NCBI GenBank assembly: GCA_905178155.1 | Contig: CAJINV010000014.1 | Coordinates: forward strand, 426,012-490,011 | Source: Amoebophrya sp. A120 | Lineage: Eukaryota; Protista; Dinoflagellata | Length of the DNA stretch: 64,000 nucleotides | Direction of reading: 5' to 3' | Shown: positions 1 to 63,910 of the stretch, one piece after another | Layout: every line of letters begins with the position of its first letter | Position numbering within the stretch: position 1 is the first letter of the stretch | Program-made: the position numbers and the translations under genes | The notes under the pieces: model-generated | Told to the model about the DNA's origin: nothing | What the model saw: only the letters and a program-made list of their open reading frames with translations | Database searches by the model: none

Positions 1-1495
1 CCTGCGAGGACGAGGGATCAGCAGTTTGTTGCTGGTTTCCACCAGCACCAGAGATATTTGTATTGCGCCTCCGGCAGAAGAAGAATCTCGGCGGGGTGAT
101 CGCGTTCAGAAACGCATCCTTTCCGCTCACAGCATTACCTCCCTGCTGGTTTCCGGCAGCCCCCCCGGATCCATTCCAGGCCCGCACAAAAGTGAGCAGA
201 GGGTTGTTCGGAAACACGAGCGGGCGGCGCTTGTTGTGATTGTTATTTTCAGCATTCTGGAAAATGACAACAGGCGAACTCCTGCTGGTGCTGCGTCCAG
301 TTGCTTTATCTTGCTGTTGCAGAAAGGAGGTGCGGGTTCTACTAGAACGTCCCATGTTGTTCTTCATCATGTCCGCATGAAGATGATCATTGGACTGGCC
401 TTCAAGATGAACTACGCGTGCCTGGCCCGGATGTTCTTCCACCTCAACCTCTTCTCCCGTCGCGTCATCGAAGCACCGCTGCTCGTCACACAGCGCGGCC
501 ACGGCGGCATCGATGGTGACAAAACTGCGGCCGGAGGAAACCAGGATTGGCTGCTTGTCGCTACGCGACTGCTCCTCCCGTTGAATCTCGGCGAAAATCG
601 GGTCTTGCTGGACAAGCTCATTCAGCTGCTGTAGTTCCGCGTGGTTCTGCAGCGGAGGCCCCTGCGTACCGCCGTTGATAGTTGGCCCCGGAGGCTGTTA
701 TGCAATGCAAAAGCATCTTCGCTCTCGTACAGTAATTGCATTGTACTGCATGTTGATCATGAGGACTACTTAAAGCTACTACAACAACTTGGTTTCGTTT
801 ACTCCTAGACCTACGCTCTGAGTCAGCATTTTACAAGAAGCACCCTTTTTTCGTTTCTGAAAAGAATTATTGCCAATCTTGCCATGCAATTCCTACAAGT
901 AGTGCGATGCTTTAGCAGTGCGTAGAGGTGGTGCTTGAGACGCTTGCTCGAAAACCCCACACCCGTAGCAAACACCGACCGCGATTCCGGCCAGGAGCAC
1001 GACGCTTCCCAGAGAAATCGCCGCGATCAGAAGCCAGTTCGGGCGGGAAGCGGTTTTGCCGCTTTGCAGCTGTTGAGTGGCACGACCACGCGCATCTTGG
1101 TCTGTCTTCTTGTTGTTCAGGTTTTTCTTCTTGCCGTGGTAGTTTCCGTTTCCCACATCACCATCCTCATCTTCTCCAAACGGGAACGGCAACGGCTGTG
1201 GGTTGTGGTCATGTGACAAATTACCCTCGGTGTCGGAGGCGAAGCTCGGAGGCTGCTCCACGTCCACCGCGCGTTCCTCGCCGGCAGCCAGGATCATGTA
1301 AGACCCATGTCCAGACGAGTTGGTCATCATGGTGGTATCATGTCCACCAAAAGCGTGATGCTGAACATCGTCGTTCTTCCCGAGCATAAAATCGTCCTCG
1401 TGCTGCTCGAAAGCACCATTGTGCTTCCGAAAAGTAGTAGCGCCGCCGCCGGGGCGGGGGGCCATCGTGATCTTACTTTGATGTCCCGGCTGCAT
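1..1495 (-). CDS. Tandem membrane-protein gene, copy A (5' part only; continues off the window's left edge); exons 925-1495 and 1-693
   Basis: Near-identical to the 5' ends of copies B and C (ATG of MQPGHQSK, TM segment LLIAAISLGSVVLLAGIAVGVCYGCGVF). Removing introner 699-924 plus 5 nt fuses it in frame to ...TQGPPLQNHAELQQLNELVQQD. Confidence 0.75.
699..924. mobile_element. Introner (TIR intron) shared by all three paralogs
   Basis: Left end tatgcaatgcaaaagcatc, right end gatgctttagcagtgcgta; degenerate DR gctgt/gaggt; restores frame; ends resemble 53495-53642 and 61141-61292. Confidence 0.75.
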
Positions 1496-4117
1496 TTTGG
1501 TAGTTGTAGGAAAGTGGAAGCTCACCGTTTGCCGTTTGACGTTGTCCTGTCTCGGTCCGATTCCTTCTCCCCGTGAGATGTGTAATGCGCGATAGAAATA
1601 TTGCGGTCTTTTTTAGTGGTTAGAGCTTTTAAAGGAAATAATGTGAAGATTTTCGAGATATTTGTCCAAAACGATTTTAGAAATTGTCCAAAAAGTAAGA
1701 AAGGTGTTGTAAAATTCTTTTATTACTCAAAGAAAAAGGTTTTGTTTTCTCGTTCCTGTTTCCCCACGGTAGAAATTCCAAGGAAAATCGACCCGCGAGA
1801 TCTATTATTATTATTATCGAAGCCACAGGCAATAGCGAGATCTACTAGACTCGAACGTGCGAAGATAAGTACTGTCACCAGCGGAGCAAAGCCGGTAATA
1901 TTTTTGACTTGATTTTTAATATTCTTACAAGAAATAATTATCCATGTAGAGATTCTTTATACGTAGATTTTGTTGCGAAAAAACTTCTTAGAGAAGGTAA
2001 ACGTTGTTTTTGTTGTACTACGTACGTCTTGTTTTTGAGATAAACACTTGGCACAACTGCTTGTACCAATTCTGTAGAAGCGAAACTGGTGCTGGCAAGG
2101 ATTTTGTTGTGGATGCATAATTCAATTTGATGAAATGGTTTGCTTCATTGTTTTCTATGGTCGTCGACCTAGTGCAGCAGCTCATATTGATATTTCGTGT
2201 AGCTTCTAATAAGAATTGAGGAGAGTAGAACCTTGTTGCTGCGAGGAGGATAGGCGGAGCAGTGGAAGCCGCTCGAAGCCCCCTGAGGATTTTCATCACC
2301 GAAGAAGATCGGGTGGCACTTCTTCTAATTTCCAAATTTATCATCCAACTCTTGAAGAGATCCTTCACGACTTTTCACCGGATCCACGCATGGTCGAGAT
2401 GCATCGGATCATCATCTTCCAGATCTTATGCTGATCTCCGTATTAAGTAGTACGAGGGGCCCGGCGGCACAGTGTAGTACATGTTGACCTCCAGAGAACC
2501 GGCTGGCGGCGGTCCAAACAACCAAGTACGAGGACGCCGGCTCTTCTTCTATCTTAGTTCTGATCTGTTCTTTCTGATCGCGAGCGAGCTGACAAAGTCG
2601 GATGATCCTCGAGCTCGACACGTCAAGCTTCGTCAGGTAAGTAGACATCGGATCGCGAAAGATCGTCCCGGCTGTGTCGTGAAGCTTCACAATGAGGATA
2701 AAAATTGAAACTGTACTCAAATTATACGTTGTAATAGTAATGCGCTCTAGTTCGTCTCCATGATCTGTGGTGCATTGGCATAGAAGCTGCATGCAGGTGA
2801 GTAATAGGAGGATCTCGATGTTGCTCTACTTACTCCTTTTCGAAGCCGTGAACGTCGCTGGGTGTTTCGTTGCAACTGAGACAGTGTCTGTTTTCGGCGT
2901 TCGCTGAATCTGATGATCGTTAAGTTTCTCTTATCACCTTCGTCTTTTTCATTTTCTTTTGGAGCAGCCCTCTTGAGAGAAAAAAGAAATCTACTTACAC
3001 TTCGAGAGAAACAATTCTGTACTGTCAAAATGCACGACTGGCGACTCGTCTTGTACAACAGGATGCATCTTTTGTTCGGAATGACCTGCCTTGGTGTCGC
3101 TAGCAGCAATGGCGAGTGCGATTCTACATCTCCTGGTCACTCTCAGTGAGGGTTGCGGTACTTACTATTTCTAAATTCGAACAGTGGCCCACAACCAATT
3201 TCAAGTAGTTGCGAAAATAGGTACTTAGCACTGTAGCGTACATGCAGCACCTCCTGTAATCGAACAAGAAATTTCTAACTATCACTGCTCGCGCTTTTGC
3301 TTTTCGTTTTCGAGGTCGAACTAAAGTAGGGCTTGGACGTTGTTCTTCTATCTTGATACAACAAATATAAAATAATAACATTATTCACGGTAGGGCTGAA
3401 AAAGAAAAACGCGAAAGTTGTACAGCTTATGTTTAGTTAGGAGAAGGTGATGTCTCGCCAAGGCCTAAATATCTGGCGGAAGTAGAGGTGAAGAGATAAA
3501 AAATACACGACACAATCACAAGAATCTGCTCCATTGATGTACTAGGCTCATCACTTCACGACGGTCCTTCGCCTTTATCTTCCTTTCTTACAAAAAGTTC
3601 CACAAGCTTCACTAGTTCTTGTGCTTTAATACGAGTTATGTTTACAACAGAAGTAGATGTCCGCATACTAGTTGGACCAAATAAAACAAAGTTCGATCGA
3701 GACCGATAAAAGTTCTGCCGGCGATCTCTTCATGTTAGCACCCATAATTCTGCACCAACGATGGATAGTTGTGCCAACATTCTAGAACTGATGATATTGG
3801 TACTACTAACACAAACACGGTGCATCAAGAAATAACTAACACTCGATATTTGCGTCCATTATCCACTGTGTCAAAACTATAGGAAAAACCAGATCAAAAC
3901 TAAACCCATTGAACCTCCTCAAGGGTCAGCGCGCGTCCTCCTGTCCAGCCGCCCAAGAACTTCTTTGGACGTGGTCGTTGAAAAGCTTCAAGAGCAGTTG
4001 TGCCGACTTGTAGTTATCATCATATTTTTAGTTGTCGTCCTTTGCCATTCTTGGGGTTTTTGCGCATAGAAAAAACTTTGTGCGACTGCTAGTTCCGCAG
4101 GGGTAAAAATATCAACC

Positions 4118-7100
4118 TTAGATCCCCGCAAGCGCGGTATCCTGACTGGCGTTATTTCCATCTGCGTCACTAGCAGGAGCATCTGTCCTCCCACCTCCTT
4201 GAGGTCGTGGGGCTGCATCGTCCCCGGGAGCAGCGGAAGGCAAGACGTCCCGCGACTGCTCCTGGTCCACATCCGCCACAACAGCGCCAGTTCCAGCCGG
4301 ATCGCTCTGCTGGTCGGCGCTCACTTCTGCGGTCGGAAAAACAGTGGTCGTGCGCTGTTCCTCAGCCACTTCCGCTTGAGCCGCAGAGGAAGAGGGCTCT
4401 GGTGTTACGGGTGCTGCCCGCTCCTGCGTTAAGTATTGTGCGAAGGCGCGTGCGGCGCGTGCTGGCTGTGCGACCCAGCTGAGCGGACCAGATTTGGCAG
4501 CCGCCTTTGAGCGCAGACCGAGGAATTGTTGTTCATCTCCTCTATCTGGAGAGATTCGCCCCCGCGGTGCGTCAGCCTCAGACGTAGTAGGTGCTTCAAC
4601 TACATTTTCTTCCTCGAGAGCATCCTCACGAACTTCCTGCGCTGGAGCGGGCGGTGCTGCCGGAGCAATCTGCTCTCCGGACTGGTCATCAGCACGCGGA
4701 GCACGGGCAGCTCCAGGTCCAGCATCAGCTGCCGGACTTGTGATATTACCTTCTTCTTGCGATGAGCAGGTTCTTGGGTCCGATGATGCAGCACCATTCT
4801 GGCCGCTGTCGTCCGGGGTCGGAACTGCAGCACGAGCACTCTGCTCGCCCACAGCAGCCGCTTCCTGTGCCGCATTTTCTTGGCCAGCCGCACTCGAGGC
4901 TTGCGGCAAAGGGGGTCGCGGGTCCCGGGCCAGCTGGTCGTGGTCCTCCTGCGGTGCAGGATGAAAGTGTTCTATTTCATCCGCGGCCTCTTCTTCCTGC
5001 GCCGTGGCCGGTACAAGAAAAGAAGATGCTGGTGCCGCTCCTGCTTCTTCTATCGGTGTAGCTGCGGCATAGGAGGCCGCATCACCATCAAGAGGGCCTT
5101 GTCCTCCGTCGTGCACCGTTGCGCGGCTTTCGTGTTCTTCGTCGCGCTGCACCAGCGTGGTGGAGGCGGGACGACCAGAGCCAGAGGACAAAGGGTCCCC
5201 GAATGATCCTAGTACCGCATGATCAACTTCTTCAACTACAACGGGAGTCGCAATCAGTGCGTCAACTCCCTGTTCGTCTACAGCAGCGCGCTGAAGATGC
5301 TCCTGCGCAACATATTCTTCTTCACCAGCCTGCTCGGAAAGGGCTGGAACAACGCCTACGGCAGCGGACGCGTCGGCCGCTGCATCATGAGCTTCCTCGA
5401 GTTCTTCGTGAGGCTGAGGAGCAGGAGGAAGTCCTCCACCATCGCCATCCTCGGCAGCTGCAGTGGCTGTCTCGGGCAGCTCCGGAGGTTGAACACCAAC
5501 ATCCTCTGGCGCCACTACCGAGTCACCACTTTCAACCCGCAAAGACAAGCTTGTTTCCGGGGTCGCGTCACGGTGCTCCAGAATTGGACCAGCTCCACTC
5601 CGCGGCCCGATTCCTCCTTGCGGGTAGGTCGCCCCGGGAGCCCGTTGCGTCGTCTCCGGCACGTCGTCCCGTCTCCGGTTTTCTGGGCGGTTATGTTCCT
5701 TCGTTTCGGACACGATCAGGCCCCAGTAGTCGTAGTAATCCGCAGCAGGCTTGGGCCGCACGATCGCTTCGTATCCTGTGCAAAAATTCATCGCATAAAG
5801 TCGCACTCGGACGAGCAGCTGCCGACGTATGTTCTTCAATATTGTTTCACAGCGTAGTTGTGCAGCACGGAGTAGATGCAGTTATTTCATAGCAACTCGT
5901 TTTTCTTTCAGCCCGTAGCCACAGCATGACACGTTCACCTTTGATTCTGTTGTGCAAAACTTTTTGATTTGCGAAAATTCAAAATTTGTGTATACATAAG
6001 TACATCGTGCAACCCGCCTTAGTGCGATCTTCACACGACAAGAAGTCTTGCACTGCATACGGCTCTAGCGCTGGTGACGGAAGAGTGGTCATGCTGCATT
6101 TCCCTCCACGCCACGTCAAATTTGAGGTTGCGTTGCAGCCGGGAAGCAGAAGCCGGTCGCGCCGCCGCCGGGGCCGGTAGCGTAACTGTTCGACGGTCCA
6201 ATCGTGGTGTGGAACAAAAAAATATCATCGCAGTCACATTTGGATTTGCAAATTATTTTGCATGACGATAATATGGATAAAATTGATGCTCGAAATAATA
6301 ATGAACAATGCTCGTACAACTTGTGTTGCACAGACAACATCACGAAAGAACTCACGTGCGTATGCAGTTTGACCGTGATCATTCATTCTATCGCGACACC
6401 AATGAAGCCAGCTTCTTTCGCAATCTAATCTGCAAAAAAAACGGACAAGTGCTTCGTGTGAAGATGTTTTTTTTCTTAATATCAACGGTTGGACCAGATG
6501 ACGCGTCGGCCAGTGTGTGTTCTCCCACGACTTCGTGGAGGGTCAGATCCACGCCCAAACCGAGCGCAGCCGCCACCCACAGCTCCGTGGGCTCGAGGAA
6601 GCCACCGGGCTCCAAGACTCTTCTGTGCTCGTCGTCCTCGGTAGTGCGCGGAATGTTGTTGCCTGATAGGGATAGATTTCCTACTGCGTCCCGTGGCTGA
6701 AAGTGGTCCAGGGAGTCGGCCACAGAGATGTAGCAGAGGTACGCGAGCTGCATGCTCGTCAAAAGTTGCTGGTTTGCTTGCTTCTCTCTATCAGTCCAAT
6801 CTCTTCGTCTTCGTTCTTCAAGAACTTCGGTGTGAGGCGGTGCAAAAACTTGGCACCACCTCACACCCTGGGCTTTCCCTCTTGTGCGCGTGGCCTCAAA
6901 GTTCGGGTCAGCAAAAACGCCCCTCGCTCCTCTCCGGTATCAAGTGCAAAAGTGTCTGGGTCTGGAAGATTGCAACTTGTCATGCTGTTTTTGGACGCTA
7001 AAAAAATTGCATTGCATGACCAGCAAGAGGGGTGCAGTTTGTGCCTCACGGACAGGGCATTTCTCATGCCGAAGGTGTATCAGGAAGGGTTCTAAAAACC

Positions 7101-10100
7101 TGTGATGGTAGGGCATACATCACAGACAATCAGGGGTCATGAGAAATGTGCATGACAAATCTTGCATTCTTCCAGACCCGGACATATTTGCAGTTCATAT
7201 CCGGCGCCGACCTGCAACTCGGACGTACGGATTGGCGCGCTCAACCACCATGTCGAACATACTCACAGTGTTCCTTCCTAGAATCATTCGGCCATTCAGA
7301 GGCATGATGTTTCTGCCGCTCCAAAAGAGATGGCTTGCGGTGTTGTCCCGCTGGCCCGAGAAAGCATCCATGAGAATCTCCGCCAGGTGGTGCGCGAGCA
7401 TTAATCGAAATTCACCTATGTTTAGTATTCCTGCCAAGAGGCCCACGGGATAGGATAGCGAGCGGTCTCTGTTTCTTAAATGCGGGGCGCACCACTCGGC
7501 GTGCGCGCCAGCTTCGGTGCACTGTCGCTTCAAGGCGATCAGGCCCCCATCACCCGATCCGGTCGGGGCTGCGCGTTGTAGTTGGTAGTTTATCACTGGA
7601 ACGGCCACCTCGCCCTCGACCGCGGAGGAGGCGTCAGACTGTTGGCCGCCCGGAGTGGCGCCCGAGGTCTGCGTGTGCTGCGATTCCTCCGCCCTCGCTG
7701 CAGCCCACCGCTGTCGCCGCTGCGCCGGCCAGTTTAGTTCCTTGTTTCCCGGCACACTCAAGCCTCGGTAGTCGAAGAAGTCGTAATTAGACCGAACGTC
7801 GGAGGAAGTCGCGCCGGCCGCCTCCAGCCTAGTAAAGTTCTTACAGGCCACCTCAAGGAGAATGTTGGCCTCCAGATCTTCTACTTCCCGGGCCGACTGT
7901 GCTGGGAATCGGGCGGAGGAGGAGGAGGAGGAGGACGAAACACGAGGCGCGGTTACTAGTACAGGAGTCGTAAGTGGCACCGGCGGAGGCCCCGGCAAAT
8001 GATGAAGCTTGAGGCGTGCGCGGTTGGTTTCCGTTGCTGCAACCCAGGGAGCAGTTTGAGGGTCCGCATCCGCGTCGGTGTCCGAATAGAGGTTCAAGTC
8101 CACCCCCAGTACCAGCGCGGCGGCGACCCACAGCTCGGCTGGATCCAGATAGCCTCCCGGCGCAACGAAGTCGTACTCCGCCACCTCCGAGGTGCGGGGG
8201 AGCTTCTGCCACGACTGCAATTGGGCATGTGCGTGCTCGAGTGGGATGTTGTTCGGGTCCGCCTTTCGGAGTTCGTCGGGCACCGAAATGTAGCAGAGGT
8301 ACGCAAGCTGTGCCGCTGAGAGCTGGCGGTCGGCTTTGATTTCCCATTCGCTCCAATACCGCTCTTTCATCTGCGCCTCTGTCTTCGGGCCCGTAAATGG
8401 TTTGGGGCTACGGTCTTGGCACCAGAACAATTGCCAGTCGGTCCTACCCCTTGCGAGCGTCGCCGCGTATTGCGGATCTCGTCCTCCCATGAGGCCTGCA
8501 TTCGAGGCCGCGCGTCGGTGAACCGCGACAAACATGCTGATAGGAGGTGCCTCCTCCACGAGGGGGCCAGAAGGCAGACGAGAATCTCCCCCGTTTACAC
8601 TAGTTACTAAACCCCGCTCCGACCAGAGCACTCGGCTCTTTGCAGCGGCGGGAAATAGACTATCTTCGTCGGTGGACTCCTCCCTAGAGAGCAAAATCTG
8701 TGCCAGTTGGTCGGCCAAGTGTCGGCGGAACCACTTTGTGTTCTGGACAATCGCGAGCGCCTGAATTTGCGTCCCCGCCCCGTCGGCGTAGCTCCTTTCT
8801 TCCGCAAGCAATCTTTGCACATGACTTTGACACAGATTCATGTGGTCCCCGGTCAGACACTGTTGCTGCAGGGCAATGAGGGCATTGTCCGCAGACCCGG
8901 TCGCAGCGCTGCTCTGGAACACAGCCGGCACGGCTGGCTGTTGCTGCTGCTGCTGGCTGCTCTGGCCCGCGCCAGTTGCCGCTGACGACGCTCCTGCACC
9001 GGAAGGCCCATTTGCGCCCTGAGACCCGCTGCTCGCCAGACCCGCACCGGACGTCCCCGAACCGCTTGCCATGCCTGTGCCTGAGGATCCTCCGCTCGCC
9101 CCGCCTGCACCGCCTGCGCCAGCACCGCTTGCGCCTGAGGATCCTCCGCTCGCCCCGCCTGCACCAGCACCGCTTGCGCCTGAGGATCCTCCGCTCGCCC
9201 CGCCTGCACCGCCTGCGCCAGAACCGCTTGCGCCTGAGGATCCTCCGCTCGCCCCGTCTGCACCGCTTGCGCCAGCACCGCTTGCGCCTGAGGATCCTCC
9301 GCTCGCCCCGCCTGCGCCAGAGGAGCCAGCACCGCCTGCGCCTGAGGATCCGCCGCTCGCTCCACCTGCGCCAGAGGAGCCAGCACCGCCTGCGCCGGAG
9401 GATCCGCCGCTCGACCCGCCTGCGCCAGACGAGCCAGCACCGCCTGCGCCGGAGGATCCGCCGCTCGCGCCGCCTGCGCCAGACGAGCCAGCACCGCCTG
9501 CTCCGGCCGCCCCGCCGGCCTGGCCTTGGTTGCTCTGTCCATCTTGGCCTTGCTGATTGTTCTGTCCGCCCTGGCCTTGGCTGTTCTGTCCTTGGTTGCT
9601 CTGTCCTTGGTTGCTCTGTCCACCTTGCTGATCTTGGTTCCCGGCATGTCCTTGGTTGCTCTGTCCTTGGTTGCTCTGTCCTTGGTTGCTGTGTCCTTGG
9701 TTGCTCTGTCCACCTTGCTGACCACCTTGGTTTCCAGCACCGCCTTGTTGACCGCCAGATTGTGCTCCGCCTACTTGCTGACCTTGGTTAGGACCCGAAC
9801 CGCCTTGGTGACCGCCTGGAGGCATGCCGGCGGCTCCCGGTAGTTGCTGGCTCGAACCGCCGCCGCCTTGCAGAACCTGGTGCGGCGGGAGTCCCCCTCC
9901 AGGCTGCTGCGGCGGCAGTCCACCGTTCGAACCCGGAGGATGCGGGAGCACCGCCACGTCCGGCACCTCCGGTAGGTTGTGCAGCTTTCGCCACCCGTCC
10001 ATCAGTTTCTTGAGCAACAAGTTTTTGAACAGCTTCATTCCGCCGCCAGGATGATGTTGATTCCCTGGAAGGAGCGCCGCGGCACCGGCTGCTACGTAGT

Positions 10101-11679
10101 GCTCCGGCGATTCATAAGCGATGCCGTCCCTGCCTACAGCTGGGTATTTACATAGCTGCTGTTGCTCCTGCGAGGACGAGGGATCCACAGTTTGATGCTG
10201 GTTTCCACCAGAACCACTATTGCGCCTCCGGCAGAAGAAGAATCTCGGCGGGGTGGTCGCGTTCAGAAACGCATCCTTTCCGCTCACAGCATTACCTCCC
10301 TGCTGGTGTTGATTAGCAACACTACTTCCCGCTGCTCCGGATCCATTCCAGGCCCGCACAAAAGCTAACAGTGGGTTGTTCGGAAACACGAGCGGGCGGC
10401 GCTTGTTGTGATTGTTATTTTCAGCATTCTGGTGAATGACAACAGGAGAACTTCTGCTGGTGTCGCGTCCAGTTGCTTTATCTTGCTGCTGCAGAAAGGA
10501 AGTGGTTCTACTAGAACTTCCCATGTTCTTGTTCATCATCTCCGCATGAAGATGATCATTGGACTGGCCATGAAGATGAACTACGCGCGCCTGGCCCGGA
10601 TGTTCTTCCACCTCAACCTCTTCTCCCGTCGCGTCATCGAAGCACCGCTGCTCGTCACACAGCGCGGCCACGGCGGCATCGATGTCGACAAAACTGCGGC
10701 CGGAGGAGACCAGAATTGGCTGCTTGTCGCTACGCGACTGCTCCCCCCGTTGAATCTCGGCGAAAATCGGGTCTTGCTGGACAAGCTCATTCAACTGCTG
10801 TAGTTCCGCGTGGTTCTGCAGCGGGGGCCCCTGCGTACCGCCGTTGATAGTTGGCCCCGGAGGCTGTTATGCAATGCAAAAGCATCTTGGCTCTCGTACA
10901 GTAATTGCATTGTACTGCATATTGATCATGAGGACTACTTAAAGCTAGTACAACAACGTGGTTTCGTTTACTCCTAGACCTACGCTCTGAGTCAGCATTT
11001 TACAAGAAGCACCCTTTTTCCGTGTCTGAAAAGAATTATCCCCAATGTTGTCATGCAATTCCTACAACGTAGTACGATGCTTTATTGCAGTGCATAGAGG
11101 TGGTCCTTGACCCGCTTGCTCGAAAACCCCACACCCGTAGCAAACGCCGACCGCGATTCCGGCCAGGAGCACGACGCTTCCCAGAGAAATCGCCGCGATC
11201 AGAAGCCAGTTTGGGCGGGAAGCGGTTTTTCCGCCTTGCAGCTGAGTGGCTGCACGACCACGCGCATCTTGTTCTGTCTTCTTGTTGTACTGGTTTTTCT
11301 GCTTGCCGTGGTAGTTTCCGTTTCCCCCATCCCCATCCTCCTCTTCCCCGAACGGGAACGGCAACGGCTTTGGGTTGTGGTCATGTGACAAATTACCCTC
11401 GGTGCTGTCGGAGGCGAAACTCGGAGGCTGCTCCACGTCCACCGCGCGTTCCTCGCCGGCAGCCAGAATCATGTAAGACCCATGTCCAGACGATTTGGTC
11501 ATCATGGTGGTATCATGTCCACCAAAAGCGTGATGCTGAACACGAACACGAACACCGTCGTTCTTCCGGAGCATAAAATCGTCCTCGTGCTCGAAAGCAC
11601 CATCGCGCTTCCGAAAAGTAGTAGCGCCGCCGCCGGGGCGGGGGGCCATCGTGATCTTACTTTGATGTCCCGGCTGCAT
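4118..11679 (-). CDS. Tandem membrane-protein gene, copy B: N-terminal TM anchor, G/Q/S repeats, two copies of an uncharacterised ~350-aa domain, acidic Ala/Pro-rich tail; exons ~11097-11679, 7200-10862, 6482-6932, 6060-6202, 4118-5766
   Basis: ORFs 11062-11709, 7195-10794, 6388-6864, 6031-6237 and 4118-5839 join in frame when four introners (+5 nt each) are removed: GPPPPGPTING, GRRRRGARGVFADPNF, GPTVELDRRTVTLP, SARAAIVRPKP. Motifs YLCYISV.D, GG(Y/F)L(D/E)P.ELWVAAAL.LGVDL.L and DY(R/W)GL occur twice. Confidence 0.75.
5772..6059. mobile_element. Introner, degenerate DR (copy B specific)
   Basis: tatcctgtgcaaaa ... tcttgcactgcata; removal +5 nt gives in-frame RA-AIVRP; paralog C is uninterrupted here. 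Confidence 0.6.
6208..6481. mobile_element. Highly degenerate introner (copy B specific)
   Basis: Left tgtggaacaaaaaaatatcatcgca vs reverse complement of right tattaagaaaaaaaacatcttcaca (17/25 match); removal +5 nt gives in-frame PTVELDRR. Confidence 0.45.
6938..7199. mobile_element. Introner with perfect 5-bp DR tccgg
   Basis: TIR tatcaagtgcaaaagtgtctgggtctggaagattgcaa / ttgcattcttccagacccggacatatttgcagttcata; DR at 6933-6937 and 7200-7204; same family as 52199-52453. Confidence 0.9.
9080..9720. repeat. Coding tandem repeats in copy B: ~48-57-bp GGSSGAGGAGSSGAGGAS-type units and 15-bp GQSNQ units
   Basis: Repeated gcctgaggatcctccgctcgccccgcctgc and ttgctctgtccttgg. Confidence 0.9.
10868..11096. 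mobile_element. Introner shared by all three paralogs
   Basis: tatgcaatgcaaaagcatc ... gatgctttattgcagtgcata; DR gctgt/gaggt; joins the TM exon in frame to ORF 7195-10794. Confidence 0.8.
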
Positions 11680-32000: not shown

Positions 32001-32039
32001 GATATGCAATACAGATTTACTGCACGTGCACACGTACAA
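26011..32039 (-). CDS. Large low-complexity protein with coiled coils and a C-terminal TM segment (both ends uncertain)
   Basis: ORFs 28905-32039 and 26011-28635 fuse in frame (GKSSS|TVVSNNKHKSSSAAALDEDIN) after removing introner 28686-29132 + 5 nt; hydrophobic FCLFLFLLGLSMIFYALW. No family recognised. Confidence 0.7.
28686..29132. mobile_element. Introner with ~55-bp TIR, perfect DR actac
   Basis: tatggcggcgtcaacaatctcaccactatagtatatcaaaaaaaaatt / aattttttttttgatatactatggtggtgagattgttgacgccgccata; DR 28681-28685 and 29133-29137. Confidence 0.92.
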
Positions 32040-32989
32040 AATGCATCACACTAATGTTCAGAAACTCAAGTCATGCAGTCAAGTGTCATGCTCAGTAGGC
32101 TTGCAGAAACATCGTTTTGTTGTGCGGAAGCGCAAATTGCATGCTGTGTACGAAAACAAATCTACTGTTGATATCGGAGTTCCTCGCCGTAGGCGAGCCG
32201 GGACCGCGGTGGACTACGGTCGATCAGGGACATTGCTTTTGATGTTGAAGCGAACGTGGAGTAAATTACTTTGTTCAACAGTAAATAAATATGATGTACA
32301 AAAAGCAAAACGATTCTTTTTGACAAATTGAACGAAAGAAGATAACCTCGCTTGCCTGCTGTTTTTGTTGTGGTTTTCCCAGTAGCATCAATAACTTGGC
32401 GGAAGCAAAAAAATATCATGCCGGCTGAGACGGCAAAAACGTGTTTCGACTTGTTCCGATGCAATGCAACAATAACTAATACAACTCGTCATCAGCTGGT
32501 TACTTGTTTCTAACTTGTTCGTGACACCTCGCACGCAGCTGGCAGCACACACGGCATTTCGTCGTGCTGCCACTGTTTTTGATCTTTTATCAACAATTGT
32601 AGCGGCAGTAAATGAATCTTCAGTAAAGATATGCGTTACTCATTGCAAAAGTCCAGTGCGCCAATGATATTCAAAAGCAAAATCTTTGAAGAGTATCACG
32701 ATGAAGAAAAAATACTTTTCTTTATACTTCGAACATTACCAAAAAGATAATCTTGAAAGCAAAAAAACACATATTTGCGTGACGGCTACAAAAGGTAGAC
32801 CTTAAACATGTGCGGCTGTGAGCCTGGTGTCTCATGTCTCATGTCTTGGAGCCGTGTCATGACATGAGGACACGAACATGGACATGACACGGCCGTTTTC
32901 ATGTCCATGTCTTCATGTCCCGACATCCCAAACCAGGACATGAGACATGAGACATGAGACATGAGACATGGCCAATGTTCATGCTCATG

Positions 32990-53500: not shown

Positions 53501-56500
53501 GTGTAAAAGTATCGCACTCGTATAAATGCCAGACTAGCATGACAAATCTGGTTTCTTACGTATTTTAGCATGACAAACTCAATTTTCATGCTGAGGAAAT
53601 TTGTAATGCATTTATACGAGTACGATACTTTTGCAGTTCATATCGGAGAGCAGGAACGAGATCTGCAGGTCGTACACGTTCCGCGGCATCACGCCGAAGT
53701 GGAAAAACACTGCCTCAAAGTCCTGCCGGCAGTCGAAGAGTACTTTTTGGCACTGCTCGCTCTCCAGCACGGTTTTCAGGTTGGGGTAACAAATGTCGTC
53801 GTCAAACGCCTTCTTCTGCAGCTCCACGAGGTCGACCAGGTAGACGGTTTTCTCCGTTTTCAGAGTCGTGGGTGGAGATATAGATATTGTCGTACTAGCG
53901 GTGTTGCTGACACAAGAACTTGAGGTGCTGCTTCCGGTGTATTCATGAATTTGGTTGTACACGTCGGGGTTTTGGTCCCTGTGAGCAGGGTCCAAGCAGA
54001 ACGGCCCGTCTTTGATTTCCGTTTCCACGGTTTCCTCCACCATGATCTGCATCAGGCACACCTCGCCGGACTTTCCCAACTCCACGCCCTCGACGTCCAT
54101 ACCAAGCAGGCGGAAGGGCTCCTCTCGTGAGGACGATGCTGTTGCTAGCCCACGACCAGGGTCTTGATCTTCGGTAGTTCCTGTTCTACTTGTCGTATCT
54201 CCTTTTATTACAGAACGAACAGAGGATGAAGATGCATCACCTTCGGTCGTAACGGAGGTGGTAATCAAAGAACCTTTATTCTTGTCGTCCTTCGGCGAAG
54301 TAGATGTAGATCTAGAAGGAGTTGCCAACAATCTTTCCGCCAGCTTCTGGACTCCAATCACCGACCCCACCCAGACTATCCGCGGCAGGTGAGCGCGCCA
54401 AATTTTCTCCTGCTCAGAGATCTTTTGCCTCTCCGCCTCCGCATCGAGGAGCTCAGAAGATGCAAAAGCGCCATTTGGCAAGTTTGCTGCAGCTGCACCA
54501 TTCAGCTGCACCCTTTTCAGCAGCTCATCTGTCTTTCTCCTGGATTCCGGGGAGTAGGGCAAAAACCCGCTCGAAGGATTATTTGAAGATGTAGTCGTTT
54601 CCACTCCTGCTCTTTGTCGTTGATGCGCCGACGTCGTCGAGGAAAAGTCGCGCAAATCCAGTTTCTTCGGCATCGGCGGTCTCTCGAATTTCGGGCTCTC
54701 GAGCTCTTTCCCGGTTCGACGATCGATGATTTTGGCGAAAAAAGCCGCGTGAAGAAACCCCTTCGCGTCTCCGGGCGTTAGGAAAACCCCGTTGCGCGCC
54801 TGAAAAAAACGGAGTCCCGCCTTCAGCGCCAACGCAAAATCCACACAAATGATCGCGTCGCAGTCGTCGCGCATGCCGGATATTACGGTTTTTGTGGTTG
54901 ATGGGGTGGGTGCTGTTGAGGTAATCATTTTCGACGTATTACTGGAGGTCAACGCAGACGTTGGCTTTGTTACGATTTGAGAACGTCCTTCATGGCCTTC
55001 GGCTGCAGCACTAGCAACAGACGAGTCCTCGGGCTTCATCTTCTCGGTAGGGGGCTGAGCCTCTTGATGAGGTGGATCTGCTTCTTCTTTCACCTCCTCG
55101 TCCTTCATCTTGAAAAACCCCAGATCTTCCTCGTCTGGGCTATCTCGTCCAGAAGATGACTTGGCAAAGAAGTGAATGTGCTGCCTGGACATTCGGGAAA
55201 GACCACCGGAGGATAAGATATCCGGAATGACGGCGAGGTAGGTTCCGTGGTAAAGGAGGGGGGTGGAAGACGAAGTAGCTGTTGGGGGCCCGTTCTTGCT
55301 GCTGCTTGGTACCACATCGTTCTTTTCGTTTTCAACACCAGCACCGCGAGGGGCTACCTCTGATGAAAAAGCGGAAAACACGGGCGTCATCAAGGCTTCC
55401 TCGTTGATCATGTGGTCCGGCAGGCTGTGGCCCTGCACAGCTCGGACGAACCAAGCGTGCTGCTGGTCTTTTTCACCTCCACGACCTCCCGCAGCAGTAG
55501 GAGCGTCGTCATCTTCTTCGCCTGGAGGTCGTGCCTCTTCATCTACATTTTCTTGCCCAAGAACATCTACGACTTCTTCCCGGTGCAGCAGCTGAAACCG
55601 CTGCTTGTCATTGTGAACGCACACCCAATAGAGCTCCTCGAATGTCAGAGGCACCACGACCGGAGGAGCTGTGTCTTCAACCTTGTTCTGTGTGAGATCC
55701 GCATTCGTACTAGTACCCGCCGTACTGGTGACATAATTTTGTGTCTTGCTTGTTTGCTGTTCAACTTCAAGCCCTTTGGTCGTTTTAGTTCTACTAGCAC
55801 CACTTGTACTAGTACACCTGACTATCTCCGGCATACCCAGGAAGCCTCTGTAGCAGTCCAGTAAGTGTCCGCAGTGCACATACCCATCTTTTGAAATCTT
55901 CAGCTTCTGCCGGTCCGCGCGGTGTCTCAGCGTGGCGGTAAGTTCCCTGCTCACCCATTCGCCTCGGCCTTGCGGGATCTTGTTGTACGCCGATCCGCGG
56001 CCCGCAGGGGTGTAAGCGGTGATGGAGAGGGAAACTAAAACTATTTGTATTTTTCCGGCGTGCTCTCGTGCGTTATTTGTTTCTGCACCATCTTCACAGC
56101 CCGACACAACAGTCCACTCCGCCTGCTCGGGCGGGCAGTAGACTTTTGCGCCGTTCACGTAGACAAAAGCCTCGGATTCCGGCACGGTAGTCGTAAGGAT
56201 GGTTTTTGTCGTGATAGACACATCCGGGCTGCTCGGCGCGGAGAGCGGTTCTTTCACAGGAGCACTCGAGGTGGTGGAGGACATCAAAGCAGTCGTACTG
56301 TCAGTAACAGTGTCGCTCGTGGTGGTACCTTTGCACTGCACGCAATCCTCGAGTAGCTCCCACAGAACGAACTGTTGGTGTTGATTTTGGGGACCAGGTT
56401 TTACTTGTGGCGTTCTTTTAATATCATCTTCTTCCGCACGGGGACAGGAACTGCTTGACGCTGACGAGGAGGAGGCAGCAACTTCTAGTACTCCTGCCGG

Positions 56501-58628: not shown

Positions 58629-59690
58629 TCGACTGATTCTCAGCAGCACGAATCGTGCTCGACGTCGACATGATTTTGCAAAAGATCAAATAAATCCTAA
58701 GCAACAAGAAGAAATACCCAGAAAGATGGTATCACACTCAAAGCACTGCTCGTCCGAAAATGTGTTCAGAATGCTAGCGTCAAGAGTAAGTAGCTTGCAT
58801 TTAACACTGTATCACGTCGTTGTCGTAGTCGCAACTAGTAGAGTTATGCGTGATATCGACGTCGCGATTAATGCGAGTTCACGCACAAAAGCGGGAAGCC
58901 ATAGAATTAGAAAGTAGAAGAAAAAAATCAGTCTAAAAGCAAAAACAATGCTATTGATGAGATCTAAATAGGTAATTGACTCGGAGCACCCGCGAGCTGT
59001 GAAGACAATCACAATTATACCGCCTGAAGAACCAACTCCAATGAGGTTTTGATGTCAACAAGTCATTAGTGAGACGGATGGCCATTCGCCTTTGCTCATG
59101 ATCTATATCTTTTTTGTGGATCATCATGCATACACATTCGGAAAGTCTGTCTCTGTCTCTCTGTTCTTCGAGAAAAAAAATCACAATGTTGAGATCCAAA
59201 CGCCTTGTTCGCTTTCCCCTTAGATCATCGTTCTGCGTCTTCTACAATATAGTTCTTTCCAGATTCTACATCGGGTTCGGGACTGAGCGAGGAAAAGCGT
59301 TTCTTTTACCACATCAAGGCGATAAGTTGAGAAATCAACATTGGGTTTTGGAAATCAAAAATTCGCTTCGACGAAATATCTTTTTCCAACACTCGCTGAT
59401 GTAGGAGAACAGATTCCTCACGGCAGCGGCTGAAGCATCTCTGGGGGTGCCAGTGCTTTAGAAGAAAGCGCAGAAAGCAGGGTGCTGTGCCCGTTTTCAA
59501 ATTGAAGACGGGAACAGTGCCTTGCTGCTCGTTACGATTAACTCAGCCTCCTCGACTTAGCTGGTTTTTTCTACTATCGCTTTTGTTTCTCCGACCGAGC
59601 AAAAGTAGGCAGACCTCACCTCTCTTCTGTTAATTTCAATGGTCACTGCATTTGTCCTAACAAGACAGACATTCACGAGCCTAGTAATCC

Positions 59691-62600
59691 TCACACTTGA
59701 AACGGGTGTTTGTTCCTCACTACTACGGCTTTCTGTGGTCTGGTCTTCGCGCTTTTCGGTGACCTCGAAGCGGATGAGCCGGCAGTCGAATTTTTGTACA
59801 ACTTTCCGTCTGTTGCTGCAGCGGCGCCAAGGGCGAAATTAGTATCCGGGTGCGGCATTTGTTGCGCCGCGGCCATTTCATTTGAAGATACCACGTTGGC
59901 TCCTGCTGTGGGTTGCTGATATTGTTGCTTTGCTTTTGCACCTTTCATCGTCGGGTGAGGCAGCGGCAATTCCAGATTCTGTTCAGCTGCGGAGGTGGAG
60001 CCGCCACCAGCACCTGCGGTCGTGTAAAAATACGGAGGCTGCTGCTGCAGACCACCGCTCGACGAGTCGTGTGATGCTACCTGGTCGGAGTCGGAAGCCC
60101 CTGCTGCGAGAGGGAGTTCAGCAACTACGCCAGCGGTTGTTGTTTCACCGACATAATTTAATGCTCCAGGAGCGGCCCCACCCCCGCCCTCTTTCTGATG
60201 TTCCTCCCCGCCGATAGAAACTTCCTGCAGCCGGTATTGCAGAGACTCGATCGTCATCTGCGACTTGTTGATAGCATTCATGCAGGCCTCAATCTGGGCG
60301 TGAATCGAAGCAATCTCATGTCTCCGGGTTCGTGACCTGGAGCTCGTCGCCCGACTCACGGTGTTCATCTTCGTACTCTGCGACGTTTGATGTCGTGGCC
60401 CACCTCGCTCTGGCAGTACCTCTGGCGCTTCGTGCTGGTGCTGATGTGGTGGGGCTCCTACACCCGCTCGTGGTCCAGGGGAGCCTTGCACATGCTTATG
60501 CTGCTGCTGCATTCGATGCTGTGATGAAGGAGACTGATGCGGCAAACCTGCGACGTTGTCGTGAAGACTAGCTGCAGCTTTATATCCCGCCGCGGGGCCC
60601 GCAAAAAGTGATGTCCCGTCGTCGGAGAAAACGGGGCTGAGCGGTTCCGGTTCGATGGGCATTTTGGTGGCAAAATTTGCCGTGTTCGGGGGCGAGTTCA
60701 TCACTTTCGGGCGGCACGACGAAAACGGATTTCGCAGGTTCTCGTCGGAAATGTGCGCAAACTCGGTTTTCAGCGCTTCCTCCTCCCCGGTTGGTTTGTG
60801 GTTGGTGGCGGCTAGTAGATTATTGCTTTGCAAGTGATTATTTGCAGCTTCTGCAGCAGTTCCAACATCCGTAGCACCAGGATGTTGCCCACCACCACTC
60901 CGCGCCGGATCTAGTACGTGATCTACTTCTCCCCCACTTCTTGGCTCTTGCTGGTCCTGCGTTGTACTACTACTGCCTCTATACGCATTGGGTTCGTCCA
61001 TTTCCCCCGCGCCCGCACCATTCAGCGTCCACTGAAGCGAGTTGTCATAGTTTACCACCCGTTGGTCCGGGCTCGTGCTGCGCGTCTGGTTTATGTTGTT
61101 ACTGCCCATCTCCTGCCACCAGTGCCGGTGTTGGGACTGCTATCCTGTGCAAAAGTATCGCACTCGTAGTGAAAATTGCAATCATGCATTACAAATCTTG
61201 TTCCCATGGCAAATCTGCATTACAAATTTCATTTCTCATGCTGAGGAAATTTGTAATGCATTTATACGAGTACGATGCTTTTGCAATTCATAACTGCTTT
61301 CCGCGAGCGAATTTCTGGTCCACATTGTACTTCGGCGACATGGACATAGACTGGTTTTGGTTGTACTGTGGCTGGGTGTAGGGATTCATCGGGTTATTTT
61401 GGTTTTGATTCTGCATTTGGACGAGTTGCTGATGCTGCTGTACCGCCGGACTGTGATTCATCTGCTGGTGCTGCTGGTGGTGCAACCCCCCGCCTCGCAA
61501 AACCGGGGACTGGGAAGAAAACTGCCGCTGTTGTTGGTCTGCTTGCGGGGGTCCAGCAGCAGGCTCCTGCACCAGGTAAGGATTGTAGTTGTCCTGGTAG
61601 GTCGTGGTAGGCGAAAGTGGATGAAGATGTTGATCTGCTGGTGGATATTGAGGGTCAAGAACACCGGTAGTCGAATTGCAAGGCGGCTCGCCAACAACTC
61701 CACCTCTATCCGGCATGCTGTGTCCCCACTTGTCGCTGATCGCTCTTCTCCTCGCCTGCTCCGCTTCGTAAGCGTTCGCTGCCTGAATGTACCGCGCTTC
61801 CTGCTCGTACCTGTGCCGCGCGCTCTGCTCCTTGTACTGCTTTTCCCAGAGAATCTTCTCCTGCTGCGAGCGAAACTGATAGTTGTTCACACCTTGTTGC
61901 TGCGGACTCAGTTGCAGGTGCGGTGGTTGCGAGTGGTTCTGATTTTGATTTATTTGCGGATGATGTGCAGTATTAGCTGCATTTTGGTGTAATGACTCTC
62001 CAGGAAGCGGTACGGCGACGGTCGTTGTGTCTTCGTTGTTGCCCCCGCCCGCACCGAAATTGTTCGCTGAGCTACTCGTGTAGTCGTCCTCATCTGAGTC
62101 CAAGTCCGACCGGGAACTGCTGCAACTGTCGTCCTCCCCATCCTCGCCGACTTTCAAACTCAGCAGAGTCCGCTTCGTCTCCTCCAAGCAGCGCAGCTGC
62201 TCCTCTTGCTTCGCACGCTCCTGTTTCAGCCGTAAAAGCTTGTTCTGGATGTTCTGCAGGTCGCGCGCCACCTGCTCCTGCACCTTCCTCTGCGCCTGCT
62301 GTTCCTGGTGCTGGTGCTGGCCTGCGAGACCACCGGGCACAGGGGGTCCGTGCTGGTGTTGCTCGCGGTGGTTGATGTTGCTGTTCACCTGGTTGTCTAT
62401 TTTTCCCGCTGCGCCTTTATTGTTGTTGCCTTCCTGCTGTTGGTCACGATCGTTGCCTGGCGGCCCTCCGGGTGCAGCTCCAGCAGGTCCAGCATTTGGT
62501 ACTACCTGTCCACCAGCTGCACCTCCCGGCCCGCTTCCCCCGCCCCGCGGCGCTACCAGCTGCCCGAGGCCCAAGCTCGAAAACTGGTCGACGTACATGG

Positions 62601-63910
62601 CCTGCAGCTCCTGTCTCTCAGCGCTGTCGTAGGAACTCCCGCAAACCACCATTTTGATCATGGTTTTGATTTTGCGCCGGATGATCGGCAGGTGCAGCAT
62701 CTCGCTGATGCTGGGCCGGTGCTGCGGGTTCACGGACAACAGGGATTTTATCAGCGTTTGGATCTCCTTCGAGCACTTTACGTTGTTCGGAATCGGGGTG
62801 AACTTGCCCTTCAACACCTTGATATGGCGTTCTCAACTGTTACATTCTCTATTGTTACATGGATTTGTGATGCAAGAATGGGAAAAGTGAAAAGGGGGCA
62901 CTGCGCGTCTTGCATGACAGATCTGGCGCAGATTATCAGCCTGCTTGGCCCTTCCAGAATTTGCCATGCAGAGCAGCAGCTTGATCCTGTAGATGATAGA
63001 GATAGTGGTAGTTTTGCATGACAAATCGTGTGACAGTTGAGAATGTAACGTTTGAGAATCCCATACTTGACCGCCAGCCCGTTCAAGCTGTTGGCGCCGA
63101 ACGCGTGCTTCCCGCAAATCAGCTCGTACAACACGCACCCGATGCCCCATATGGGATTCTCAAACGTTACATTCTCAACTGTTACATGATTTGTCATGCA
63201 AGAACAGCAATAGGGAAAGGGGCCGGCTTGCAATTCTCGCATCACAAATTCGACACAGATTTAGATGTTGTTTAGCCCTTCGAGAATTTGTCATGCGAAG
63301 CAGCTTGATGGTCTGGCGGCTCATGGTCAATTTGCATGACAAATCATGTAACAGTTGAGAGTGTAACGTTTGAGAGCCCCATACCCCAGATGTCCGACTT
63401 GTAGCTGTAGGAGGCGTTCTTGAACACTTCGGGGGACATGTAGAAGGGGGTCCCGATCTGCGTGCGGGCCAGGTAGTCCTTGCTGCCTTCCAGCACCTTG
63501 GCGATCCCGAAGTCCCCGAGTTTGATCATGCGGTAGTGGGCCGGGGGGAGCGCGACCAAGTGGACCGCAGCACTGTGCGGGTTTTGGTGTTGCTGGGTCT
63601 GCTGCGCGGCGGCCAGGATGCCCGAGTGGAGAAAGATGTTCTGCGTTTTCAGGTCCCGGTGCAGAATGCTCCGCGCGTGCAGAAACTGCACGGCCGCCAC
63701 GATCTGAATCAGCCAGTCAATCAGCATCGGCTCCTCGGCGGCGGACTGGATGGGCTGGGACTTTCGGTTTTTCTGCAAGTACGTGTACAAATCACCGGAA
63801 TCGCAGTACGCCATCAGAATGCAGAGGTGGTCGCCGTGGAGAAAGTTGTCCCGGTACGCGACGATGTTTGGGTGCCGAATTCCCGCGAGCAGGGCCACTT
63901 CTTGCTCCAC
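59691..63910 (-). CDS. NEK: NIMA-related (NEK) Ser/Thr kinase with long low-complexity tail, 5' end off window; exons 63384-63910, 63066-63144, 61293-62817, 59691-61135
   Basis: HPNIVAY, HRDLKTQNIFL, KLGDFGIAKVL, TQIGTPFYMSPE; spliced SDIWGIGCVLYELICGKHAF and LAVKVLKGKF; AG acceptor at 63911-63912. Confidence 0.92.
61141..61292. mobile_element. Introner, perfect DR actgc
   Basis: tatcctgtgcaaaagtatcgcactcgta / tacgagtacgatgcttttgcaattcata; join GKQSQHRHWWQEMGSNN. Confidence 0.92.
62823..63065. mobile_element. Introner, perfect DR cttga
   Basis: tatggcgttctcaactgttacattctc / gagaatgtaacgtttgagaatcccata. Confidence 0.92.
63150..63383. mobile_element. Introner with ~52-bp TIR, perfect DR cccca
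   Basis: tatgggattctcaaacgttacattctcaactgttacatgatttgtcatgcaa and its inverse; interrupts kinase DIWG|IGC. Confidence 0.95.

What the first reader, a model, noticed from the sequence alone, without database searches (positions are those of the whole stretch)
699..63383. About 20 TAT...ATA hairpin introns obeying one rule: remove element + 5 nt, no GT-AG needed
Seen: unrelated 148-447-bp elements (one expanded to 1.1 kb by a nested insert) begin TAT and end ATA, occasionally TGT/GTA. They carry TIRs of up to ~55 bp and 5-bp direct repeats, and they interrupt conserved motifs (kinase DIWG|IGC, exonuclease domain). Deleting element plus one DR copy restored frame in every case checked, even where the DR has decayed (5772, 6208). 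Among the nine perfect-DR copies no sliding register gives GT-AG, and only 52525 offers GC-AG. Known: IR/DR non-canonical introners are reported in Amoebophrya genomes, and to my knowledge their excision mechanism is unresolved. Inference: the splice position is measured from the TAT/ATA stem base rather than by DR homology. At 14984 paralog comparison (GGF not GEF) says the upstream DR copy is kept. The termini recall the TAY..RTA ends described for IS3EU transposons, although those are given 6-bp TSDs.
Basis: partly seen in the sequence, partly recalled or inferred. Interest (0 to 1): 0.82.

Follow-up and report, generated by a model that had tools for sequence, protein, structure and literature searches.

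The report
Amoebophrya introners cut at fixed register
These are the already published transposon-like introns of the marine parasite Amoebophrya A120; spliced transcript contigs lack them, and the junctions fit one fixed cut (one base before the TAT end, four bases after the ATA end), likely made by a spliceosome that has dropped the GT-AG rule, which would supply the missing rule for how they are removed.

Summary
The window is Amoebophrya sp. A120 and carries 21 TAT…ATA inverted-repeat elements (19 independent insertions), the published introners of Farhat 2021. Spliced-RNA contigs from one sample lack 14 of 21; 13 fit element + 5 nt (7 read singly, 6 as paired sums). At 6208 the donor likely slipped 3 nt inward (element + 2). 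Mismatched repeats leave one register: intron = N-TAT…ATA-NNNN. Four bases of the upstream repeat are kept, plus the fifth of the downstream copy, not the whole upstream copy. TAT then sits where the host's canonical donors read GTAT (5 of 6). In 286 outside elements the repeat is exactly 5 bp (227 exact, 0 at 6 bp), against IS3EU membership. Against my reading: the window's AG/G bias at the 3′ end did not replicate outside (13 of 118, p 0.16). The elements are not unrelated: most share a TGT[CG]ATGC motif. Best mechanism: a relaxed, U1-less spliceosome guided by the hairpin (0.6); the rival is euglenid-like cut-and-ligate (0.25). I found the register in no paper searched. This scan's agents reported it on other A120 windows (consulted after I derived it).

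The parts
699..924 (-). Introner (TAC..ATA in transcript sense); same insertion as 10868 and 21142; predicted intron 695-925
   Evidence: outside the stretches laid with RNA
5772..6059 (-). Introner, decayed repeat; intron 5768-6060 at k=4
   Evidence: joint 5766>6060 skips 293 = 288+5 in X1, X2; k 4 or 5
6208..6481 (-). Aged introner (TAT..ACA in transcript sense), no repeat left; RNA intron is exactly 6204-6479: 3' cut 4 nt past the terminus, donor T|TAAG 3 nt inside the TAT
   Evidence: joint 6203>6480 skips 276, no ambiguity, X1-X3
6938..7199 (-). Introner, perfect 5-bp repeat
   Evidence: joint skips 267 = 262+5 in X1-X3
10868..11096 (-). Introner, repeat mismatched at positions 3 and 4; ends in AG at k=4
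   Evidence: joint skips 234 = 229+5 in X1 only, letters between not verifiable; k 4 or 5
14984..15422 (-). Introner, repeat mismatched at position 3
   Evidence: joint skips 444 = 439+5 in X1-X3; k 3-6
15489..15736 (-). Introner, repeat mismatched at positions 1 and 4; ends in AG at k=4
   Evidence: joint skips 253 = 248+5 in X1-X3; k 4 or 5
16042..17141 (-). 1100-nt introner with nested insert (about 16071-17002); GT-AG possible at k=3
   Evidence: joint skips 1105 = 1100+5 in X2, X3; k 3-5
21142..21360 (-). Introner, paralogous copy of 10868
   Evidence: not tested with RNA
28686..29132 (-). Introner, perfect repeat, 61-nt arms
   Evidence: not tested with RNA
32003..32173 (-). Introner, perfect repeat, weak inverted repeat
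   Evidence: not tested with RNA
47855..48136 (-). Introner in PCI-domain gene; repeat mismatched at positions 2 and 3
   Evidence: P0001 reads k>=3; X1 record 1 length fits removal
48413..48670 (-). Introner in PCI-domain gene; repeat mismatched at position 4; ends in AG at k=4
   Evidence: P0001 reads GVTAEV, k>=4; X1 record 1 length fits
49033..49258 (-). Canonical GT-AG intron with the same geometry, G-TAT..ATA-ACAG
   Evidence: P0001 mapping
51028..51354 (-). Introner, perfect repeat
   Evidence: X1 record 2: with 51414 the two removals sum to +10
51414..51564 (-). Introner, repeat mismatched at position 5; k<=4
   Evidence: pieces stop at 51566 in X1 and X3, 56-nt middle exon
52199..52453 (-). 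Introner, perfect repeat, high-copy family
   Evidence: X1 record 2: with 52525 the two removals sum to +10
52525..52836 (-). Introner, perfect repeat, 67-nt arms; GC-AG possible at k=1
53495..53642 (-). Introner at the end of the Tpt1/exonuclease ORF
   Evidence: X1 record 2 skips 153 = 148+5; Pfam
61141..61292 (-). Introner in kinase gene, perfect repeat
   Evidence: no joint shown
62823..63065 (-). Introner in kinase gene, perfect repeat
   Evidence: no joint shown
63150..63383 (-). Introner splitting kinase motif SDIWG|IGC
   Evidence: no joint shown

Best explanation
These are Amoebophrya A120 introners, likely non-autonomous DNA transposons with a 5-bp target duplication, that are missing from spliced transcript contigs; the junctions fit one fixed register (N-TAT…ATA-NNNN), likely cut by the host's own spliceosome with GT and AG relaxed. 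Shown: 5-bp repeat, inverted ends, removal from RNA contigs, and that k=4 is the only register compatible with all informative junctions. Inferred: insertion by a DDE transposase duplicates 5 bp. The terminal UAU then supplies intron positions +2 to +4, exactly where host donors read GUAU, with any base at +1. The terminal stem likely brings the ends together and sets the 3' cut four bases past AUA, with any dinucleotide there, standing in for U1 (reported undetected in A120) and for AG recognition. Because 1+4 equals the duplication length, any insertion in either orientation would restore the message exactly.
For: Joints: 6 of 7 element joints are exactly +5. X1 record 2 removes five more elements at +5 singly or in paired sums. 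X1 record 1 is 2001 nt, equal to the PCI gene minus 5 canonical introns and 2 elements (+5 each) plus a 10-nt spliced-leader-like tail, so the same molecule lacks both intron types and is RNA. Register: 5772, 10868 and 15489 allow k 4-5; 51414 allows k<=4; the 6208 3' side is exactly 4; P0001 gives k>=4 at 48413. At k=4, +2 T and +3 A occur in 19 of 19 independent elements and +1 is free (T7 A5 G4 C3). Six canonical donors from two gene models all start GTA and 5 start GTAT; one canonical intron is G-TAT..ATA-ACAG. At 6208 the donor moved to the next N-UA site (T|TAAG), as a sequence-reading donor would. A120 keeps 83 of 89 spliceosomal proteins plus U2, U4, U5 and U6, with U1 undetected (PMC7789003 section 10). 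A precedent exists in Fritillaria (PMC11282704 section 6).
Against: No lariat, branch point or factor was observed; the spliceosome is inferred. The window's 3' bias (AG 6 of 19, G 13 of 19) did not replicate in outside elements: AG 13 of 118 and G 43 of 118, both p 0.16, with 1 AG gain and 1 loss in 25 mismatched repeats. A +5 G preference at the donor end also failed (17 vs 31, opposite direction). The invariant TA is also what a transposon terminus would conserve, so it is not independent evidence. Exclusion of k=5 rests on two sites (6208, 51414). All RNA is assembled contigs of one sample and may be the window's source material. 7 of 21 elements have no RNA joint. Only six canonical donors were seen, from annotation.
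Confidence: 0.6

Rival explanations
1. The register is real but the chemistry is not spliceosomal: a structure-specific endonuclease measures from the hairpin base, cuts 1 nt before and 4 nt after it, and a ligase joins the exons, as proposed for euglenid nonconventional introns.
For: Junction bases outside the stem look sequence-free in the large outside set. 16 of 21 elements have their terminal three pairs predicted at P>0.7. Euglenid introns have offset terminal pairing (+4..+6 with -8..-6) and leave as circles (PMC11282704). U1 is undetected in A120.
Against: TAT lines up with the host's GTAT donors and one canonical intron has the same geometry. 6208 and 16042 are spliced without predicted terminal pairing, and the 6208 donor shifted to an N-UA site. 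No such enzyme was identified.
Confidence: 0.25
2. The net removal is element + 5 but there is no single register; cuts vary by family or follow nearby cryptic signals, and k=4 is an accident of nine sites.
For: Farhat et al. describe splice sites as variable relative to the hairpin. 6208 is an exception and 16042 allows GT-AG at k=3.
Against: Nine informative junctions (seven from RNA contigs, two from the gene model), in several sequence families, intersect only at k=4. The published variability is expected from alignment sliding inside perfect repeats (inference).
Confidence: 0.08
3. The elements stay in the mRNA or leave at the DNA level; the joints come from reverse-transcriptase skipping across hairpins between direct repeats, or from somatic excision.
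For: Hairpin plus direct repeat is the classic substrate for RT template switching (recalled). The joint table for the DNA-like run X5 was cut (15 shown, 623 not shown), so rare DNA excision is not excluded.
Against: Joints form with 0-1 letters of homology (6208, 5772, 15489). Retention would break conserved frames. X5 contigs run into the elements and one contains 48413-48670 whole (record 15). The contig that lacks elements also lacks canonical introns and carries a leader-like tail.
Confidence: 0.04

Closest known systems
Introner elements of Amoebophrya sp. A120 (Farhat et al. 2021, PMC7789003; Gozashti et al. 2025, PMC12130899)
   Same: Same organism; inverted repeats start TAT, then about 7 nt, then an A run; 3-5 nt direct repeats (5 bp in the Fig. 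S19 legend); hairpin; non-canonical ends; MITE-like; classed mostly as TIR DNA of unknown superfamily.
   Different: The papers call the borders variable or unknown and report automated duplication lengths of 2-6 (one family 5 by manual inspection, in the 32 of 58 rows read). Here the duplication is uniformly 5 bp, the register is fixed at 1+4, and a shared internal TGT[CG]ATGC motif links the families.
Euglenid nonconventional introns (as reviewed in PMC11282704)
   Same: Terminal stem offset from the cuts, TSD-like repeats, no GT-AG, MITE origin proposed, mechanism unresolved.
   Different: CAG/CTG at +4..+6 and -8..-6 and a pyrimidine|purine junction, excised as circles; here TAT at +2..+4, ATA at -7..-5, free junction bases, excision product unknown.
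Fritillaria borealis non-canonical introns (PMC11282704; bioRxiv 10.1101/2025.08.15.670264)
   Same: TIR/TSD transposon-derived introns with non-GT-AG ends handled by an adapted major spliceosome.
   Different: Preferred AG-AC/AG-AT ends, U1 kept, duplicated U2AF; here no preferred dinucleotide and U1 reported undetected.
IS3EU/GingerRoot, IS481EU and Ginger2 DNA transposons (PMC10045372)
   Same: TA..TA or TNT..AYA termini; integrase-like DDE clade; Gozashti 2025 report an A120 TIR family with integrase-like ORFs.
   Different: IS3EU usually makes 6-bp and IS481EU about 4/15/25-bp duplications; Ginger2 makes 4-5 bp. Here it is 5 bp and no transposase was found.

Membership tests
Amoebophrya A120 introner elements | Located in the A120 genome | tested here: met
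   Two window ORFs match proteins named Amoebophrya sp. A120 at 100%
Amoebophrya A120 introner elements | Inverted repeat starting TAT, forming a hairpin | tested here: met
   TAT at the 5' end in 17 of 19 and ATA at the 3' end in 18 of 19; terminal pairs predicted in 16 of 21
Amoebophrya A120 introner elements | 3-5 nt direct repeat at the borders | tested here: met
   10 perfect and 10 partly mismatched 5-mers among 21 window elements, none left at 6208; 227 of 286 exact outside
Amoebophrya A120 introner elements | Removed from transcripts with non-canonical ends | tested here: met
   14 of 21 absent from RNA contigs; GT-AG possible for 1 of 19 here and 10 of 147 outside
Amoebophrya A120 introner elements | Repeated across the genome | tested here: met
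   Summed contig depth about 30 outside and 10^3-10^5 over elements in X5; 68 BLAST hits from window elements to outside loci
IS3EU/GingerRoot transposons | TA..TA termini | tested here: met
IS3EU/GingerRoot transposons | 6-bp target-site duplication | tested here: not met
   0 of 286 exact 6-mers against 227 exact 5-mers
IS3EU/GingerRoot transposons | Autonomous partner with IS3-like DDE transposase | tested here: inconclusive
   No genome held; 3 elements over 600 nt in 160 loci plus the window, longest ORF 238 aa without a Pfam hit
U2-type spliceosomal introns | GT/GC..AG terminal dinucleotides | tested here: not met
   0 of 19 are GT-AG at k=4; 5 of 147 outside
U2-type spliceosomal introns | Donor positions +2 to +4 match the host consensus | tested here: met
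   N-TAT against GTAT in 5 of 6 canonical donors; small sample, confounded with the transposon end
U2-type spliceosomal introns | Branch point and lariat; snRNP dependence | not testable with these tools
   Only contigs covered the genes; the raw-read run X7 had 80 reads, none on exons
Euglenid-type nonconventional introns | CAG/CTG stem signature and pyrimidine|purine junctions | tested here: not met
   TAT/ATA signature, free junction bases
Euglenid-type nonconventional introns | Excised as full-length circles | not testable with these tools
   No raw reads of this strain

The most novel reading that the evidence does not exclude
A120 runs a genome-wide splicing code in which a transposon's own terminal hairpin defines both splice sites at a fixed 1+4 offset and none of the bases at +1, -1 or -2 matters. 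The machine is either a spliceosome whose U1 and AG-reading steps have been replaced by recognition of the UAU/AUA stem, or a separate cut-and-ligate enzyme. Either makes every insertion of this 5-bp-duplicating transposon harmless at any site and in either orientation.
Probability: 0.4. Interest if true: 0.88.

Novelty: new variant of a known kind. Interest (0 to 1): 0.58.

Why it matters
More than 60% of A120 introns are published as non-canonical with borders 'unknown' and an unresolved mechanism. A single 1+4 rule collapses that apparent variety into one signal and explains how tens of thousands of insertions could be tolerated. It would also let the gene models be corrected, and it tells experimenters which bases to mutate and where to look for lariats or circles. 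If spliceosomal, it would show that G+1 and the terminal AG can be dispensed with in vivo on a genomic scale.

Tried and rejected
No whole genome is held, so there was no genome-wide search for a transposase. Run search: no holder on record as RNA; the RNA nature of X1 was shown by content instead. No joint was shown for 61141, 62823 or 63150 (low cover, table cut); 699, 21142, 28686 and 32003 lay outside the laid stretches. Two other joints (4803>8882, 17600>8942) look like paralog or repeat cross-mapping and were left out. Candidate 48857-49238 was rejected (spans an exon) and 37492-38020 was set aside (no 5-bp repeat). A residual AG/G at the 3' end and a +5 G at the donor end looked significant or suggestive in the window but failed outside. 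TGT[CG]ATGC as a branch point: it sits about 40 nt inside both ends symmetrically and in both orientations (145/74 in the 5' half, 85/114 in the 3' half), which fits a subterminal transposase site better; not resolved. The frame test on outside elements only modestly favoured +2/+5/+8 (108 of 218 against 77-95). The element-end pattern gave 0 hits in viral contigs; Rfam gave 0 hits in the window; the long-element ORF had no Pfam hit. Literature searches gave no statement of a fixed register. Figures 3 and S19-S23 of Farhat 2021 are images I could not see and may show part of it.


Full report
Identity. Two window ORFs match proteins named Amoebophrya sp. A120 at 100% (P0001; P0002). No genome was held. 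All element-bearing genes lie on the minus strand.

Observation. A scan for TAT..ATA with an exact 5-bp flanking repeat and terminal complementarity finds 9 elements against a mean of 0.06 (max 2) in 100 shuffles (a looser version gave 12 against 0-1 in 10 shuffles). With decayed copies the catalogue is 21 elements and 19 independent insertions, since 699, 10868 and 21142 are one insertion in three tandem paralogs. Two further candidates were dropped: 48857-49238 spans an exon of P0001 and 37492-38020 lacks the repeat. The elements are not unrelated. Some pairs align at 73-79%, and 34 of 38 TGT[CG]ATGC hits outside the 32.8-36.3 kb repeat array fall in elements, which cover about a tenth of the bases; 15 of 21 elements carry the motif.

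Removal from RNA. Runs X1-X4 are contigs of one sample, labelled RNA by guess. Their content shows RNA. X1 record 1 is 2001 nt, which equals 46258-49686 minus five canonical introns and two elements (each + 5) plus a 10-nt loose end; I assume that loose end belongs to this record. With the next genomic AG it ends in TCAAG, the last five bases of the dinoflagellate spliced leader (PMC7789003 passage). In one search, 7 of 9 listed joints skip an element: 293 = 288+5, 267 = 262+5, 234 = 229+5, 444 = 439+5, 253 = 248+5, 1105 = 1100+5, and 276 at 6208. The other two joints look like paralog cross-mapping. Four joints were flagged 'between: not known'; piece coordinates show no extra letters for three, and 10862>11097 (one contig) could not be checked. 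In one search, X1 record 2 skips 153 = 148+5 at 53495 and leaves middle exons of 66 and 56 nt, the sums expected if 52525, 52199, 51414 and 51028 each lose +5. So 14 of 21 elements have RNA support and 7 have none. The DNA-like run X5 runs into the elements and holds 48413-48670 whole, but its joint table was cut.

Register. Let k be the number of upstream-repeat bases kept. 5772, 10868 and 15489 allow k = 4 or 5; 14984 allows 3-6; 16042 allows 3-5. At 51414 the exon piece stops at 51566 in both X1 and X3, which excludes k = 5. At 6208 the junction is unambiguous and the 3' cut is 4 nt past the terminal ACA. The annotated protein reads k>=4 at 48413 and k>=3 at 47855; this is a gene model, not a read. 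Only k = 4 fits all: intron = N-TAT…ATA-NNNN. 6208 is the exception on the donor side. Its inverted repeat aligns best to the TAT at 6481, so the RNA removes element + 2, in frame, starting at T|TAAG three bases inside; I treated it as 6208-6478 in the tallies.

Outside test. Among 286 elements defined by inverted repeats alone, 227 have an exact 5-bp repeat and none an exact 6-9-bp repeat. A codon model, correct in sign for 20 of 20 window elements with the local gene left out, oriented 147 of the 286. GT-AG is available at any register for only 10 of 147. The set is biased to one family and to young copies.

Mechanism. At k = 4 all 19 independent window elements have T at +2 and A at +3, with any base at +1. 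The six canonical donors in two gene models all begin GTA, five begin GTAT, and one canonical intron is G-TAT..ATA-ACAG. This, the donor slip at 6208 to another N-UA, and the retained spliceosome with U1 undetected favour a relaxed major spliceosome aided by the hairpin. Against it: the window's AG (6 of 19) and G (13 of 19) excess at the 3' end did not replicate (13 and 43 of 118, p 0.16 each; 1 AG gain, 1 loss in 25 mismatched repeats), and a +5 G preference ran the other way (17 vs 31). The junction bases therefore look free, which keeps a euglenid-like endonuclease/ligase route open. Terminal pairing is predicted in 16 of 21 elements but not in 6208 or 16042, which are spliced, so a strict stem ruler is not shown either. 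The internal motif lies about 40 nt inside both ends (267 of 286 outside elements carry it) and is more simply read as a transposase-binding repeat; that is inference.

Comparison with the literature. Farhat et al. 2021 (PMC7789003; I read the abstract, sections 10, 11, 12, 16, 32, passages, and supplement passages and part 2 of 5; figures not visible) describe these elements, with TAT-starting inverted repeats and 3-5 nt direct repeats, and call the borders variable or unknown. Gozashti et al. 2025 (PMC12130899; passages and 32 of 58 A120 rows of supplement 8) class most of those rows as TIR DNA of unknown superfamily with mixed splice sites, and describe a TIR family with integrase-like ORFs, a candidate mobiliser. 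Gozashti et al. 2022 (PMC9860276, passages) state that most introners leave mRNA length unchanged, so 'element + duplication' is itself expected; the news is the fixed, dinucleotide-free register. IS3EU has TA..TA ends but usually 6-bp duplications (PMC10045372, passages). Euglenid and Fritillaria introns were seen through PMC11282704 (passages, section 6) and bioRxiv 10.1101/2025.08.15.670264 (abstract, passages); PMC11453091 in passages. Searches showed no paper stating the register; subscription papers such as Roy et al. 2023 were not read.

Earlier scan notes. One search, made after I had recorded k = 4, lists 35 findings holding my search words; 7 of the 8 shown, all from this genome, report a fixed cut and 4 state the 1+4 offsets. 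They are unchecked AI notes and not independent support.

Verdict. A real, already described family; the exact 1+4 register is a refinement I could not find in print and it makes the open mechanism testable. Interest 0.58.

Noticed in passing
window 32807-36272: 3.5-kb foldback-like element with long terminal inverted repeats built of TGTCTCA arrays, flanked by a 9-bp repeat (TAGACCTTA) set 2-3 nt outside CAT/ATA ends; Mutator-like by recalled duplication length; looks intergenic.
   Followed up: partly
window 37492-38020: 529-nt inverted-repeat element with TAT..ATA ends but no 5-bp repeat; can be read as TA-flanked TGAAGG..CCTTCA, mariner-like (recalled).
   Followed up: no
window 53645-57556 (-): ORF with Tpt1/KptA RNA 2'-phosphotransferase matches in three stretches plus a 3'-5' exonuclease domain. 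Tpt1 acts in cut-and-ligate tRNA splicing (recalled); probably a coincidence, but worth a look given the rival mechanism.
   Followed up: no
window 1-1612, 4118-11796, 14239-22057 (-): Three tandem paralogs of a large gene, no Pfam family apart from a weak pentapeptide repeat in one; they share one introner insertion and differ in the others.
   Followed up: partly
window 16071-17002: Nested insert with its own inverted repeats and ATATGAC-type repeats inside introner 16042-17141; the whole 1.1 kb is still spliced out precisely.
   Followed up: partly
window 49686: Trans-splice site: an X1 contig carries a spliced-leader-like tail joined after genomic TTTTCACAG.
   Followed up: yes
window 47573 and 48279: The TGT[CG]ATGC motif also occurs in two canonical introns of the PCI gene, which may be aged introners.
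   Followed up: no
window 52199-52228: Raw RNA run X7 has about 76 reads of a related element end joined to foreign flanks, an unspliced or retained copy elsewhere, apparently in another strain.
   Followed up: no
window about 59691-59745 and 58576-58630 (-): The last 55 nt or so of the kinase-gene ORF recur about 1.1 kb downstream.
   Followed up: no
outside loci L001-L163: C is scarce at repeat position 5 (intron +1 under k=4): 19 of 118 against 27% background, p 0.007 uncorrected among 20 tests; mismatches are also rarest there (3 of 36).
   Followed up: partly
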